Source: Giardia intestinalis
Lineage: Eukaryota
Strand: one strand, 5' to 3'
Length of the DNA stretch: 64,000 nt
Assembly (NCBI GenBank): GCA_000002435.2
Contig: CM018793.1
Part shown: piece after piece, positions 1-18,000 of the stretch
How the letters are laid out: each line of letters begins with the position of its first letter
Numbering within the stretch: position 1 is the first letter of the stretch
Position numbers: made by a program

Positions 1-3000
1 CATCGCCAGCGGTACGGTCAATGGCATCTGCGATTGCACTCTTGCTTGTCTCTGCTATGCCGAGCTCCGCTTGCTTAACCTTGTCGCTGGATTGTGCAGT
101 CCTCTCTTTGTATAGATACGTACCCACTATCATTTTGTAAGCGTCTCCCGCAAAGTTTAGCAACGTAAAGACAGCCTTGTTATGAGTGAAGTACTCGTAC
201 CAGTCAGAAAACCGTCGAGGATTGTATATGGAGAGCAAAGAGAAGAGCTTCCAACTGTACACCACGGTGGGGCTGCATCGAAAAGAAGTGGGACAGCTTG
301 CTGCAATCTGGCGGGCATAGTTGTAGAGAGGCAAATGGCTATTAAACTTGTCAGAGAAATGGGAGACCAAGAACCTTATGTCATTGACTAGTATCATCTT
401 GAGCTGAGTCAAATCGTCTGGATGGCCTAGCTTGAAGCACAGATTGTATATGGATATGAAAAGATTGATGTAGAGCCCCCGTTCTCGCTCTGGTAGCAGT
501 AAGACAGTATTCTCTAAGATGTAGTGTGCAGTATTGACAATGGCAGTGAAGGCCCGAGATGGATTGGACCCTACGTGGTCGTCAAGATAGGAAAGGTGGC
601 ACTCAAAGAAGTGGTCGGTGAAAACAGTCGCAATACTTGGGTGAATCAGGGACATCTGCCTCAACAGCAAGAGTATGCTTGTAATGGCTGTTCCAAAGTA
701 TTTGGCATATTCGCTTATTGTCGAGCTTTCCGCGATTTTCTTTGCAAGCTCCTCTCTATGCTCTATACAGCGTTCTACTCCAATGCAGTACAGATTCATT
801 TCGGCAAAGTCAAAGCCCTCACTGTCCTTAGATGCATGCTGTAGATGAACAAAAACAGCATTGGACTCTTCACGTTTGACCAAGCGACTCATGATCTCCT
901 TCTTGGAAAGTATATACTTCTCGAGATTGTTTGCGATGTTCTCGATATTCCTGTGAAGTCTGTCAGAGCATTCAAGGCAGCTCTCACGGCGAACTATCTC
1001 AAGACCATCAAATCCGTTAACATAAAGGGAGTACACGCTTGAGAACTTTTCTGATATTTCGCGAAGCTTGTACTGCAGCTCATGTTCCGTCACAGATGGA
1101 TTTTGCATCCTAAGAAGATTGAGCGAGTTAGACTTAAACTGGAACTTGGGAGCGTTCAGAGTAGACATGTCACAGTTACGAAGATTGATAAAACCTGTTT
1201 CCAAGAGAAACTTAAGTGAAGCTCCTGTGGTAAGGACATAGTATATTCTATAGTCATGCAACGGGCGGACAATATCTACTGAGTATGTTGTTGTCACAGA
1301 CACTCTTGCATTTCTCTTTGTTAATCTGGACTCGATAAGCAGTGCTAGCTTTGTCAGTATCATCATGTTGAGCATTGGCATTGCTGCAGATCCAAAGTTC
1401 AGAAATACAATAGGCTTGTCTTGAAGCAGTGCATGCTTAAGAAGAGCCTCAAATATGGGTGGCGGAAGGTGACAATCTAAATATATCAAAAGCTTTCTAC
1501 GGACCTCGTGATAGTTATAGCAAGTTGATGGAGCGCCAAAACGCACGTTTGAAGGTAGCCTTTTGTATGACACCGCCGAATATTTTAGACTGGCTATCTG
1601 CTTTAGAAGATCTTCAAGCTCAGCTATAAGGTAGTGCATCTCATTGTACTGGGCAACGCCCTTTTCAGGCCTCTTGCCAGTGTCGCCATGACTGCCTTGT
1701 GTACCGAGCACTAGATCCTCGATGGTAGCGTTTATTGCTCCCGTCGCATTGTACTTCTCTAGCGCTTGCTCCACATTAACCCCCATGGCCGATAGCCGCT
1801 GCTTACAGTCTTCGAGACGAGCCTCTAATAAGTACACTTCGCAGGCGGGTATTATAATGCGTGCCAAATCGCTTGTCACAAAGAGGAACTTGAACCCAAA
1901 CTTGATGTACTGTAGTAGTATAATAATTTCTTGAATCAACTTTGGATCTGGATTACATAGTGAGCAAGTAAGTTGCGTCCTCCACCTGGGCCACATGAGG
2001 TCCTCGCAAAGCATGAGCAACCGTGAAGGGAGACCGTAGTTGGAAAGCATGTCTGACCGTTGGATCAACTCGTCGCTGGTTGAAAGATTAAACAAAGATT
2101 GCAGCATTACCGTGCTATTGTCAGAGTAGGAGGTGTTTAGGGAATTATTCATAATCTTTCTATTCTTGAGACACTCAAACAAGCCCAGTTCAAACTGCAC
2201 ACAATTGCCCCAAATGGATGTTATGAACGGGTAGAATAGCAGTCTGGCTGCAATAAGCGGTCCATCACAGCATGCATTTTGAAGCATGATCACGGCACGA
2301 ATAAAGTCCAGCTTAACCTTAAGCTTTATGGAAACAAGCTGGTCCCGGAGATAAATGATGTCGTTGCGGATAGAGGGCGAAAACAAGCCATTGCGAATGC
2401 CGTTATCAAAAAGGGTGATGCTGGACAGGATCTTTTGAATAAATGTGATTGTCTTCAAATGCTTTGCAATAAGCTCGTTTGTGTAATAGCTTGCAACTTC
2501 GGAGAAGCGCGCAAGACTGTATGGGATTGAATGTGAGACGTTCTGCATGCAGCACTTATAGATGCAGAGTGTAGTTTGGCAAAAGATCTCGCAGTACATA
2601 CTACTATATGCATCGTGAAGCGGGGTTTCTGAGTGCTCGTGCTGTGTGATAAAAGGCTTAGGGTCAAGATTATATGGAATATTTGATAGAATAAAGTAAG
2701 GGATTGCCCTAACGAGCTGCAGACTGGGCGTTGCTGTTTCAGACGCCTTGTATGAGCCTTGTAGTATATTCTCAGCAGTCCCTACTTGCAGCGAATGTAT
2801 CCTATCGTTCTCATCAATCGTGTGCCGTATGACCGGAAGCTCTTGCAATGGAAGAGGATGATCAACGCTAGTATCTGCGAATACCACCAGCGAAAAGGAT
2901 CTAGAGAGGATGTTGATAATCTCCTTCCCAGATAGCATGGTTGTGAGGCAGAAGTACTTGGCCAAGAGAGCACCCAGCACTCGAACTTCTCCGTTTGTGA

Positions 3001-15000: not shown

Positions 15001-18000
15001 AATCAATGATTCTAAATATCTTATTCTGAAGCGCAATTAATAAAGGATCAAACTTAGAGCAAGAAAGAAGGCGGTCATGAGCATCCTGAAAGTGTGGCAC
15101 AGAGCAAGGAGGTAGACAGAAAAGCTCAACCCCATAAAGGGTTTTATGGGAAGGATCTACAAATAAGCGTGCGCCCTCTGCATGCTTTAGAGACAGTCTA
15201 GAATAGAAGCGCAAATGATCAAACCTATGGCGTGTATCAAGTCTGTTTGTTTCTAGAGCGTTCTCAACGATGCTTTTAGCAATAACGAACTTATACAATG
15301 AAGAAAGACCATGCAACTCGGCATCTTCTAGATCGTATTTCACTACCATTTCAGAATTTTCCTCGGACGTCTCAGAGGGCGCAAAAGTGAGTAAGCTTTT
15401 TGATATATAAACGCTTGGAACCATTATGTCCAATAGGTAACTGTTAGTGAGCGAGAACTGATCCTCCTGAAGATGTGCTAGTCCTGTTATTGAAGACTTT
15501 AATTCGTCAATGAATAGATGCTCGACACTATCAAGATCTAGCCCCTGGACAAACCCCTTACGCGATGAATACATTACTGTAAACCTTTCCCATTCCCTTT
15601 TAACTAGTACCTTAATCAAAGTAATAAGATGCTCATTTGGGCATACTCCATGCTTTAATACGGGATTCTGCTTAAAGAGGTGGTCGTTAGAGGTTGCAGG
15701 AAGGAGGTATCTGTTACGCCATGGAGTCGTAACTAACTTGTTAGAAGAGTCTGTGTCAAGACTGGAAGCATAAATATCGAGCTCAGGACTAGCCATAACT
15801 GCTTTAATCTCCTTATAGAATATGTTTCCAAGGATACTATTCAGGCTAGCATAACTATTCACGCGAACTAGGGCGAGTGGGGCAACCACTACTTCTCTCT
15901 TCATAAGCAGAACAGCTCGTCTGTATAGAAAATCAACATGGTATATCTGACACCACCTGTAATAGCCAGGCCGCACTAGTATATACCCAGGGCACCCTAA
16001 CTGCATTGGCACACAGTGAAACTGCAAACCATTAAAATTAATCCCTGTGGATATTTTGCTGCAGAAATCTTTTGCACATTGTGTGGTTAGGACTTCTATC
16101 AAATGGACTATTTCATTATGGCAAGAAGAAATTGGAAGTATTGTTGTTACTGCTTTAACTCGGTCTCCATTCTTGGCCTGAATTATGCTGCCTCCCATTG
16201 CTGTGTCGCGCTCGGTCTTCTGCAGCGAGCCTCCAAGAATCTGGGGAACCCGTAATGGTGTAGTGGATCTCTTCAACGACATTCCTTCGTGAAGACAATA
16301 AATATTTATCCTGTTTCTGGTTATCAAAGATAATTTCATCAGTTGTACGGTGATTCACTCCACCCACCGGTTGCTTCCAGCGCTGTGCTGCCGGGCCGCC
16401 TGCAGGCACGATTCAAAAATCTCACGAGTAAATTCTCGTTCAAGCTCTGGCCAGTTCAGAGACGACTGTTGGTCATTGATAACATAATGAGAGAGTCCTC
16501 TCTAGTGATATATCCAGAGCCTGGCACATTCCTCTGCCATTTCATGAGCGTGTGCTCAATCCGGGTGTGCGCGTCGGTCTGCCCAGGATTCAGGCCTTCT
16601 CGCAGACCCTCTGCTCTACCGGTGGTGCCTCTCCTTGGCCTGCCGTCTGGTGGGTGAAGCTCGGGTTGCTGTCTTTTTTAGATGCTCCCATCTGTCAAGG
16701 GCTGCCACCGGGCTCTCCGCTGGCTGGGCCCTCGGTGCCCGTCCGGCTGTGGCTCGAGTCAGGGCTCCCACAGTCGCGGTCACCTGGGTCTCAGTGGGCC
16801 GGCTGGTGGGACCGGGTGGGGGGTGTTGTATGTGCCCTTGGTGTCAGTGGGTCAGTGGGGTGGTGGGTGATCTCCGCTCTGTTTGCCAAGGTGGTTGTGT
16901 CTGATCCCCAGCCTTCGTTGCACTCCAAGACACAGGCACCGACGATCGTGTCGTGTCCCCTGACTGAGCGCCTCCCTTGGCCCCTTGTCTCAGGCAGTAC
17001 TGCCTCTCTGACTGGCTGGTGCGTGAGTGTCGAGGCAGGCCATCGCAGCCCCTCCTGTTGCTCTGTGCGGGTCTGCTGGGCCCCTGGCATGCCCTGTCCA
17101 GTGCCTCGACGGTAGTTCACCTCGGCCAGCAGGGGTGTGGATGGCCTGTGGATGGGATGGGTTCTCTCGTGCCTCTAGTGTGATGGCCCAGAAGACTGGC
17201 ACAGTGGGGCACTGGTGACTGCACTGTCCCTGTGGTCAGCTGTGCTGCTCCTGGTGGGTCCTCGTTGTGGAGCGCTGTGTGTCGTCCGTAGGCAGAGGTG
17301 AGCCTCCTTGGTCTCAGGATGCTCTACCATGCAGAGAGGAGCACGCTGATGGTTACCCATACCTCACCTGCTGTGCCCGTTCGGGAGTTCCCGATGTGGT
17401 CTACTAGGATCTTGACCCCTCCTCGTGGCTCTGATGACCCCTCGGGGAGAGCCGGGGCATCCTATGCCGAGGGGCGTGCACCCTCCTGCATGAGCTGGGA
17501 CCCACTGCACTGCCTCCAAGGAGGTCTGCTATGAGAGGCAGTGAATGATTGACAGCCCCAGAGTGCGGTGGAGGGTGATCGTGGTCATCTCTGTGACCGG
17601 GCATCACTCTGATGGTCGGCTCTGTGCCTGTGTGGTGCTCATGGGCCACCTGTCTGCCTCATCGCCTGCTGGACAGCCGGCCTCTTGTGGCGTCCGAAGG
17701 CCTCCTCGCTCCTCTGGCTGCTGCCCCCTCAGGTCATCGTGAATGCAGTCGAGGCCAGCGAGTCTGGTGCCTGCCTGGGTGTCATGGGGGGCTGGCAGCT
17801 GTCAGGGCTCTGCCACTGCTCACCTGCCTGGAGTGTGCCTCCCTTGGGTCTGCTGTGCTGCGTGAGTCCTCTGGCTTCCTACCAGGCCCTGACTGTGAGG
17901 GTGACTCCACCTGGCCCTCTGATGCCCCTGTGGATGAGCATAGCAATGTGTCTGGCTAGGGATCTCTGGTGCCCGTGTCTGTCACTGCCTCTCGGGTGGC

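What the first reader, a model, noticed from the sequence alone, without database searches (positions are those of the whole stretch)
1..16339. A gene of more than 16 kb (over 5,400 codons, still incomplete) is invisible to the ORF track, with a repeat element abutting its start
The supplied track shows only short ORFs across 1-16400. One minus-strand frame is open in every segment I translated by hand (near 16339-16100, 10141-10022, 5737-5640 and 240-1), and all listed minus-strand ORFs avoid that frame. The gene must therefore exceed 5,400 aa, with its C-terminus outside the window. This is among the largest class of eukaryotic proteins, alongside dynein heavy chain, midasin and UBR4. A Walker-A-like LIGEAFSGKST lies about 3,500 aa in, but I could not place the protein in a family by eye. 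The first in-frame ATG (16339) sits 11 bp from the terminus of the inverted-repeat element. The start may instead be 16282, which is preceded by an AT-rich 'aggataaatatttattgtcttcacgaaggaATG', or 16198.
Basis: seen in the sequence. Interest (0 to 1): 0.5.

Follow-up and report, generated by a model that had tools for sequence, protein, structure and literature searches.

The report
Giant orphan AAA+ gene of Giardia
The 16-kb open frame is real: it is the first 5,427 codons of a known but uncharacterised 6,401-residue Giardia gene (GL50803_137711), which appears to be a very divergent, diplomonad-restricted giant ATPase whose one modelled module most resembles dynein and midasin.

Summary
One minus-strand frame is open from the stop at 16357-16355 to base 1 (5,451 codons, chance about 1e-125). 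The ORF track missed it only because ORFs that run off the window are not listed.

The window is Giardia intestinalis WB. The product matches the annotated 'hypothetical protein' GL50803_137711 (6,401 aa, 717 kDa) at all 5,427 residues, so 974 C-terminal residues lie outside the window. The start is ATG 16282, not 16339: orthologues carry in-frame stops upstream and share an AT-rich box at -15 to -25.

dN/dS is 0.12. No Pfam or PDB sequence match exists for any part. An exhaustive profile search found only giant relatives: G. muris, unnamed Giardia-like genomes and a TAA/TAG=Gln (hexamitid-type) organism. They fall into two deep clades.

Membership of the dynein family is not shown: profile-profile E is 0.23, and neither six modules nor a stalk were demonstrated.

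The parts
1..16282 (-). Coding sequence (5' part) of GL50803_137711, codons 1-5427 of 6401. The last 974 codons lie beyond the left edge of the window.
   Evidence: No stop in the frame. Zero mismatches over 5,427 aa to P0007 = XP_001708036.2. dN/dS is 0.12 against assemblage B.
16280..16282 (-). Start codon ATG (MSLKRSTTPL...).
   Evidence: Orthologues in P15, assemblage B and the P0004 lineage begin here or two codons upstream. They have in-frame stops 12 and 9 codons upstream.
16297..16307 (-). Conserved AT-rich box AAATATTTATT, 15-25 nt upstream of the ATG. Probably the Giardia-type AT-rich initiator or promoter element (inferred).
   Evidence: Invariant in the three lineages aligned, while the flanking upstream DNA diverges.
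16337..16339 (-). Upstream in-frame ATG, used by the old 6,420-aa gene model and rejected here as the start.
   Evidence: The 19 extra codons are not conserved, and the orthologues have stops in this stretch.
16355..16357 (-). In-frame TGA that closes the open frame on its 5' side.
12683..16282 (-). N-terminal ~1,200 aa, the least conserved part of the protein.
   Evidence: 30-44% invariant columns, against 55-78% further on. dN/dS is 0.20-0.23, against 0.05-0.15 elsewhere.
7583..8740 (-). AAA+ module without a Walker A (aa 2515-2900): an alpha/beta core (aa 2519-2704) and a helical domain (aa 2789-2899). The P-loop position reads VGDTMRSYNN. The Walker B position reads VVLCGVEF, with a nearly invariant Glu.
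4913..5800 (-). Second AAA-like module, carrying the P-loop (aa 3495-3790). Motif order: Walker A, Walker-B-like strand KYIIMEN (5123-5143), strand ISIVVESS (5024-5047), then FVLPP...F..L..R.F.
   Evidence: Family alignment. hhalign matches only the P-loop to the dynein AAA2 P-loop, E 1.5e-4. Individual members give weak generic AAA Pfam hits, E 0.006 or worse.
5684..5710 (-). Walker A motif GEAFSGKST (GxxxxGK[ST]), the only one in the 6,401-aa protein.
   Evidence: Regex scan. G, G and K are invariant in both clades and in the hexamitid-type relative.
16411..16823 (+). Left copy of a ~410-bp dispersed repeat, which forms the left arm of the inverted repeat upstream of the gene.
   Evidence: Other copies lie at 18474-18873 (-, 85%) and 27031-27299 (-, 81%).
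18474..18873 (-). Right arm of the inverted repeat, immediately 3' of the VSP gene at 18941-20533 (-).

Best explanation
The open frame is the 5' 85% of a genuine single-exon gene of Giardia intestinalis WB, GL50803_137711. It encodes a 6,401-aa (717 kDa) protein and starts at ATG 16282.

The protein belongs to a fast-evolving family of giant proteins (5,900-7,400 aa) found so far only in Giardia species and other diplomonad-like protists, in at least two old paralogous clades.

Its centre holds AAA+ ATPase modules of the kind found in single-chain ring ATPases such as dynein and midasin. The first recognisable module (aa ~2515-2900) has lost the Walker A and the canonical Walker B in every member, so it is probably a non-catalytic structural or regulatory unit. 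About 1,000 aa downstream, a second module keeps an invariant Walker A and is probably the only nucleotide-binding site. Its Walker B is canonical in only one member, so it may bind ATP and hydrolyse it slowly or not at all.

I infer that the protein is a large nucleotide-gated mechanical or scaffolding machine derived from the dynein/midasin branch of AAA+ proteins. The long, variable N-terminal region would act as a tail or linker.

Shown: the gene, its start, purifying selection, the family, the AAA+ fold of one module and the conserved P-loop. Inferred: the ring architecture, a specific relationship to dynein, and the activity.
For: - Open frame and identity to the annotated protein.
- Start codon.
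- Purifying selection along the whole length: dN/dS 0.12, and 0.05-0.09 in aa 2400-3600 and 4200-5400.
- Family of collinear giants. Two clades. A clade-B gene sits next to CBF5 and L27a genes at least 90% identical to those of G. muris, which also has the clade-A gene GMRT_14745.
- A relative in a TAA/TAG=Gln organism.
- AlphaFold model, mean pLDDT 63, core 63-88.
- Foldseek: a dynein motor is top, and about 30 of the top 50 are dyneins.
- The model has beta-hairpin elements between strand 4 and helix 4. By my reading this fits the pre-sensor-1 hairpin clades that include dynein, midasin and MoxR.
- hhalign's best local alignment, and its extended alignment, put the family's 'Y.GKA..LD.IPL..QL', 'GGYAICLPE' and 'RLRKLF' in register with dynein AAA1 'EYLG..LV.TPLTDRCY', 'IFITMNPG' and 'NLKKLF'. 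The four weak window hits are collinear.
- Walker A is invariant and the AAA-like motif order is kept.
Against: - No sequence method links the family to dynein, midasin or any other family. Pfam finds nothing at E up to 1, apart from generic P-loop hits. PDB phmmer and hmmsearch give only P-loop matches at E 0.2 or worse.
- hhalign against real dynein AAA1-AAA2 gives E 0.23, against 0.51 for the reversed control.
- Foldseek E-values for dynein (1.9e-4) and ORC3 (3e-4) are nearly equal, and TM-scores are low at 0.2-0.3.
- The model rests on only 12 sequences, and 142 of its 471 residues are below pLDDT 50.
- Only two modules were recognised. Internal-repeat signals are no better than the controls.
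- No stalk or microtubule-binding domain, no MIDAS domain and no RING were found.
- The first 1,200-aa model failed, with pLDDT 29.
Confidence: 0.5

Rival explanations
1. It is a true but extremely divergent dynein heavy chain (a 'ghost' or orphan dynein). On this view it has a tail, a linker, six AAA modules with AAA1 inactivated, and a reduced stalk. It may be the remnant of the cytoplasmic dynein-1 that Giardia is reported to lack, or the orphan diplomonad dynein mentioned in the literature.
For: - The relative position of the first AAA module is similar: 0.40 of the length, against about 0.41 in dynein-1 (my knowledge).
- There are collinear weak hhalign hits to the DHC_N2 end, the AAA1 N-part and the AAA1 lid 'PKLVAEDIPL'.
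- Kollmar 2016 reports that Giardia has no cytoplasmic DHC1, and that one orphan diplomonad dynein has an unalignable tail (PMC5100056).
Against: - No dynein Pfam domain matches in any of the members scanned, including the C-terminus.
- hhalign is not significant.
- The C-terminal family profile finds no dynein chain in the PDB.
- AAA1 has no P-loop in any member. There is only one Walker A in 6,401 aa, whereas dyneins keep four (my knowledge).
- Orphan dyneins in the literature were found by sequence similarity, which this protein lacks.
Confidence: 0.25
2. It is a lineage-specific giant protein that merely contains one or two AAA+-like P-loop domains, acquired or evolved independently of dynein and midasin. 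For example it could be a STAND/ORC/clamp-loader-like NTPase switch inside a huge helical scaffold, with no ring.
For: - Foldseek places ORC3, RFC and clamp-loader subunits, DnaA and MgsA among the top hits, with E-values close to those of dynein.
- Pfam's weak hits are generic: AAA_16, AAA_29, AAA_30, nSTAND.
- Internal repeats are not detectable.
- Most of the 6,401 aa has no recognisable fold.
Against: - Two AAA-like modules lie in tandem about 1,000 aa apart in the centre of a very long chain, which resembles the single-chain ring ATPases.
- The model's hairpin insert before helix 4 is not a clamp-loader feature (my reading).
Confidence: 0.2
3. It is Giardia's orthologue of another conserved eukaryotic giant, such as midasin, RNF213 or UBR4, diverged beyond recognition.
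For: - A Ser/Asp/Glu-rich stretch precedes the conserved C-terminal domain, as in midasin (seen in the sequence).
- In RNF213 the ring also starts about 2,400 aa in and has inactive first modules (my knowledge).
Against: - No VWA/MIDAS, RING or UBR-box profile matches.
- The AAA block starts at aa 2515 rather than about 300 as in midasin.
- Giardia midasin has been analysed separately as a conserved protein (cited in PMC3017767; from memory also Garbarino and Gibbons 2002).
- RNF213 is absent from the Foldseek top 50.
- The exhaustive profile search found no relatives outside Giardia-like and diplomonad-like organisms.
Confidence: 0.05

Closest known systems
Dynein heavy chain motor domain (cytoplasmic and axonemal)
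   Same: Both are single giant polypeptides with a long N-terminal region followed by AAA+ modules. The modelled module's best structural matches are dynein motors. The motif order around the first module can be laid in register with dynein AAA1.
   Different: There is no detectable sequence homology. The first module has no Walker A or B, and only one P-loop is present instead of four. No stalk, microtubule-binding domain or dynein C-terminal domain was detected. The protein is about 1,800 aa longer.
Midasin (Rea1/Mdn1)
   Different: In midasin the AAA ring sits near the N-terminus and most protomers keep their P-loops. Midasin also ends in a MIDAS/VWA domain, which was not found here. Giardia is reported to have its own midasin.
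RNF213 (mysterin)
   Same: Both are giants with a dynein-like AAA core that begins about 2,400 aa in and in which only some modules keep their nucleotide motifs (my knowledge, not tested).
DNHD1 and other 'ghost' or orphan dyneins
   Same: Both are aberrant dynein-like giants with degenerate nucleotide sites and a lineage-restricted distribution (PMC5100056).
   Different: Those proteins are still recognisable as dyneins by sequence, and this family is not.

Membership tests
Dynein heavy chain | Matches to the dynein profiles (DHC_N1/N2, AAA_6-9, MT, AAA_lid_11, Dynein_C) | tested here: not met
   Pfam scans found none at E up to 1. They covered the whole window product, the C-terminal 1,400 aa, seven family members' central segments and the hexamitid-type relative.
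Dynein heavy chain | AAA1 with Walker A (GPAGTGKT) and Walker B as the main catalytic site | tested here: not met
   The first AAA module has VGDTMRSYNN at the P-loop position. No GK[ST] is present in any of the 12 aligned sequences.
Dynein heavy chain | Profile-profile similarity to dynein AAA1-AAA2 | tested here: inconclusive
   hhalign against 22 real DHC1 fragments places the best alignment in the expected register, but E is 0.23 against 0.51 for the reversed control. Only the P-loop reaches E 1.5e-4.
Dynein heavy chain | Structural similarity of an AAA module to the dynein motor | tested here: met
Dynein heavy chain | Six AAA+ modules forming a ring in one chain | tested here: inconclusive
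   Two modules were recognised. Self-comparison gives only E 0.006-0.1, similar to the reversed controls. The 1,200-aa model failed.
Dynein heavy chain | Coiled-coil stalk with a microtubule-binding domain, plus a buttress | not tested
   No coiled-coil or further structure prediction was available. By eye there are only short helical hairpins near aa 4811-4900 and 5066-5186.
Midasin | C-terminal MIDAS (VWA) domain | tested here: not met
   No VWA-type Pfam hit in the C-terminal 1,200-1,400 aa of three members. The C-terminal profile finds nothing in the PDB.
Midasin | AAA ring close to the N-terminus (from about residue 300) | tested here: not met
   The first AAA module starts at aa 2515 in WB and at about aa 1,080 in the compact hexamitid-type relative.
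AAA+ ATPase superfamily (fold level) | Alpha/beta core with five parallel strands followed by a helical lid | tested here: met
AAA+ ATPase superfamily (fold level) | Walker A and Walker B in a catalytic module | tested here: inconclusive
   Walker A is invariant in the second module. Walker B is canonical (VHLDEG) only in P0040, is reduced to IIMEN in WB, and is absent (VLLHS) in G. muris clade A.
RNF213 / UBR4 | RING/E3 module or UBR box | tested here: not met
   No such Pfam hit anywhere. RNF213 is absent from the Foldseek top 50.

The most novel reading that the evidence does not exclude
Diplomonads carry a previously unrecognised branch of the dynein/midasin superfamily. It would be a family of 0.7-0.8 MDa single-chain AAA+ ring proteins in two ancient paralogous clades, in which the ancestral motor site (AAA1) is dead and a single downstream P-loop remains. 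In Giardia, which is reported to lack cytoplasmic dynein-1, this could be what is left of that motor, repurposed as a nucleotide-gated scaffold for its unusual microtubule cytoskeleton.
Probability: 0.2. Interest if true: 0.7.

Novelty: new variant of a known kind. Interest (0 to 1): 0.4.

Why it matters
About 40% of the Giardia proteome has no assigned function (PMC13322205). This 19-kb gene is exceptionally large, yet it is labelled only 'hypothetical', or wrongly 'translation initiation inhibitor'. It is under purifying selection over its whole length, so the cell pays for a 717-kDa protein that it needs.

Placing it near the dynein/midasin class of AAA+ machines gives testable hypotheses: nucleotide binding at one site, ring architecture, and association with the cytoskeleton or with large complexes. 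It also illustrates how far giant AAA+ proteins can drift beyond sequence recognition.

On the practical side, the work fixes the start codon. It also shows that the 'invisible gene' was an artefact of the window edge.

Tried and rejected
- Pfam on the whole window product, on the C-terminus and on distant members found nothing specific.
- PDB sequence searches with the single sequence and with two family profiles gave only generic P-loop matches.
- The word-indexed search with the family profile returned nothing, so that search was wasted.
- The first AlphaFold run (1,200 aa, four close orthologues) gave pLDDT 29 and was unusable.
- The AlphaFold database library was unavailable.
- hhalign against real dynein AAA1-AAA2 fragments was not significant.
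- The self-comparison for internal AAA repeats was no better than the controls.
- My by-eye match of the C-terminal 'RLYGIGYD..L.T.VD.SPES' to dynein's 'GL.LEGA.WD...L.ES.P' was not supported by the profile search, so I dropped it.
- The label 'translation initiation inhibitor' (DH and GS isolates) has no supporting domain.
- VSP remnants in the 16340-18940 spacer: tblastn found none.
- Rfam found no RNA family in the window.
- The literature search for the locus tag found nothing relevant.
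Full report
**Observation.**
On the minus strand, one frame has no stop codon between the TGA at 16357-16355 and base 1. The other two minus frames carry 296 and 363 stops over the same span. That gives 5,451 open codons, and base composition puts the chance of this at about 1e-125. In-frame ATGs lie at 16339, 16282 and 16198.

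The ORF lister shows nothing of 200 aa or more in 1-16400. The reason is mechanical, because it omits ORFs that run off an end of the source. The 'invisibility' is therefore an artefact of the window edge.

**Source and identity.**
The neighbouring genes are Giardia variant-specific surface proteins (18941-20533, 20698-22497, 28455-30629) and intron-less eukaryotic housekeeping genes: ubiquitin E1, Spb1, Nop56/58 and a kinase.

A database search with 4,995 aa returned only four clusters, all from Giardia. The window product is identical at all 5,427 residues to XP_001708036.2, 'hypothetical protein GL50803_00137711' of G. intestinalis WB. That protein is 6,401 aa long and lies on a 4.02-Mb record. 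The window therefore lacks the last 974 residues, and the full protein weighs 717 kDa.

Orthologues are 84% identical in P15, 71% in assemblage B and 65% in an unnamed lineage. In the DH and GS isolates the protein is labelled 'translation initiation inhibitor', and no domain supports that name.

**Start codon.**
The old gene model (6,420 aa) used ATG 16339 and the current one uses 16282. In assemblage B and in the P0004 lineage, in-frame stops lie 12 and 9 codons upstream of the equivalent start. The stretch between 16339 and 16282 is not conserved.

An AAATATTTATT box at 16297-16307, 15-25 nt upstream of the ATG, is invariant in all three lineages. The start is therefore 16282. I infer that the box is the AT-rich initiator or promoter element typical of Giardia genes (my knowledge).

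**Selection.**
Against assemblage B, dN/dS is 0.12 and dS is about 1.5. Regional values run from 0.20-0.23 in the first 1,200 aa down to 0.05-0.09 in aa 2400-3600 and 4200-5400. This is a protein-coding gene under constraint along its whole length.

**What sequence methods say.**
- Pfam finds nothing at E up to 1 in the window product, in the C-terminal 1,400 aa or in distant relatives. The only exceptions are weak generic P-loop/AAA hits.
- phmmer and family-profile hmmsearch against all PDB chains give only generic P-loop matches, at E 0.2 or worse.

**The family.**
An exhaustive HMMER profile search of 1.84 billion representatives gave nine hits:
- G. muris GMRT_14745, a 6,408-aa 'hypothetical' protein;
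- four unnamed giants of 5,911-7,361 aa from read-archive assemblies;
- four fragments.

The giants are collinear with the WB protein from end to end, at 18-27% identity, and form two deep clades. The clade-B gene P0040 lies beside CBF5 and L27a genes that are at least 90% identical to those of G. muris. G. muris also has the clade-A gene, so the clades are paralogues.

One fragment lies on a contig where a single frame has 40 TAA/TAG codons but only two TGA, both at the extreme 5' end. Read with TAA/TAG = Gln, this frame is one ORF of more than 2,100 aa containing both conserved modules. That genetic code is the one used by hexamitid diplomonads (my knowledge), so the family seems to span the diplomonads. 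Nothing outside this group was found.

**Structure.**
A 1,200-aa AlphaFold run with four close orthologues failed, with pLDDT 29. A 471-aa run on the best-conserved block (aa 2490-2960, window 7403-8815) used 12 sequences. It gave mean pLDDT 63, an alpha/beta core at 63-88 and a helical domain at 66-84.

- Foldseek against the PDB put a yeast dynein motor first (E 1.9e-4). About 30 of the top 50 were dynein motors, mixed with ORC3, RFC and clamp-loader subunits, DnaA and MgsA at similar E-values.

The block is therefore an AAA+ module, and its nearest solved relatives are dynein and midasin.

**Motifs.**
The modelled module has no Walker A in any member: WB reads VGDTMRSYNN where the P-loop should be. 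At the Walker B position it reads VVLCGVEF, with a nearly invariant Glu.

About 1,000 aa downstream lies the only Walker A of the protein, GEAFSGKST (aa 3525-3533, window 5684-5710). Its G, G and K are invariant in both clades and in the hexamitid-type relative. It is followed by an AAA-like order of elements:
- a Walker-B-like strand, canonical only in P0040 (VHLDEG), reduced to IIMEN in WB and lost in G. muris clade A;
- a conserved 'hS-hhh-E' strand;
- a 'P...F..L..R.F' start of a lid.

**Test of dynein membership.**
I then ran hhalign locally.

The best alignment places the family's 'Y.GKA..LD.IPL..QL' on dynein's 'EYLG..LV.TPLTDRCY' just before the AAA1 P-loop. The extended alignment keeps 'GGYAICLPE' and 'RLRKLF' in register with 'IFITMNPG' and 'NLKKLF'. 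However, E is 0.23 against 0.51 for a reversed control.

Sliding windows gave one significant hit, P-loop to P-loop at E 1.5e-4, plus a few weak collinear ones. Self-comparison did not reveal further AAA modules above the controls. A profile of the conserved C-terminal domain finds no dynein chain in the PDB.

Membership of the dynein family is therefore not shown. Several defining features (the Pfam signatures and a catalytic AAA1) were tested and not met.

**Other readings.**
Midasin is unlikely. No MIDAS domain is present, the AAA block is not N-terminal, and Giardia midasin has been described separately (cited in PMC3017767; also from memory). No RING or UBR box is present either.

Kollmar (PMC5100056) reports that Giardia lacks cytoplasmic dynein-1 and mentions an orphan diplomonad dynein with an unalignable tail. 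I could not establish whether that protein is this gene. No paper in the library mentions the locus tag.

**Upstream repeat.**
A ~410-bp unit occurs three times in the window: 16411-16823 (+), 18474-18873 (-, 85%) and 27031-27299 (-, 81%). The first two copies form an inverted repeat around a 1.6-kb GC-rich spacer. That spacer has no long ORF and no similarity to VSPs. The right arm lies just 3' of a VSP gene. The left arm ends 129 bp upstream of the real start, so it does not abut the gene.

**Verdict.**
The gene is real and already annotated.

What is new here is threefold: a structural assignment of one module to the AAA+ fold, nearest to dynein and midasin; the definition of a diplomonad-restricted family of giants with two paralogous clades; and the pattern of one dead and one P-loop-bearing module.

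The mechanism is inferred rather than shown. I propose a single-chain AAA+ machine or scaffold gated by one nucleotide site, with a confidence of about 0.5.

Noticed in passing
window 16411-16823, 18474-18873, 27031-27299: A ~410-bp dispersed repeat occurs three times inside the VSP-rich, GC-rich segment (about 16.4-28 kb, GC 52-58% against 42-47% in the giant gene). Two copies form an inverted repeat around a 1.6-kb spacer that has no ORF over 133 aa, no VSP similarity and no Rfam match.
   Followed up: partly
L001:1-151 and L002:1-128 (orthologous loci of other Giardia lineages): Both read-archive contigs stop 128-151 bp upstream of the gene's start. That is the position where the repeat arm begins in WB, which suggests a repeat lies at the same place in the other assemblages and breaks their assemblies.
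   Followed up: partly
L007:1-6834 (ENA ERZ11466750): One frame has 40 in-frame TAA/TAG codons and only 2 TGA. The gene caller cut a single ORF of more than 2,100 aa into 13 small 'genes'. The organism evidently reads TAA/TAG as sense codons (hexamitid-type code). Its homologue has only ~1,080 aa ahead of the AAA block, against ~2,500 in Giardia.
   Followed up: partly
L004, L005, L006 (all from run SRR31929897): Three family members that differ greatly from one another (P0034, P0036, P0041; 17-24% identical; GC3 0.52-0.71) come from one sequencing run. Either the sample holds several Giardia-like organisms, or one genome carries three paralogues.
   Followed up: no
L003:6001-25875 with neighbours 650-3742: A clade-B giant (P0040, 6,624 aa) lies next to CBF5 and L27a genes that are at least 90% identical to those of G. 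muris. A G. muris-like genome therefore has two family members. Whether G. intestinalis WB also has a clade-B copy was not determined.
   Followed up: partly
window 48454-54552 (+) and 54549-57602 (-): Two further large ORFs (2,032 and 1,017 aa) have no Pfam match at E up to 0.001. They appear to be more large orphan genes in the same window.
   Followed up: no
protein clusters: The same protein is named 'Translation initiation inhibitor' in the DH and GS/B isolate annotations and 'hypothetical protein' in WB and P15. No domain supports the former name, which looks like annotation error that has been propagated.
   Followed up: partly
(exhaustive representative search): The G. intestinalis cluster of the query itself was not among the hits, although the 63-100% identical orthologues should have scored in the thousands of bits. 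This is probably a property of the library rather than of the biology. It means a clade-B paralogue in G. intestinalis could also have been missed.
   Followed up: no
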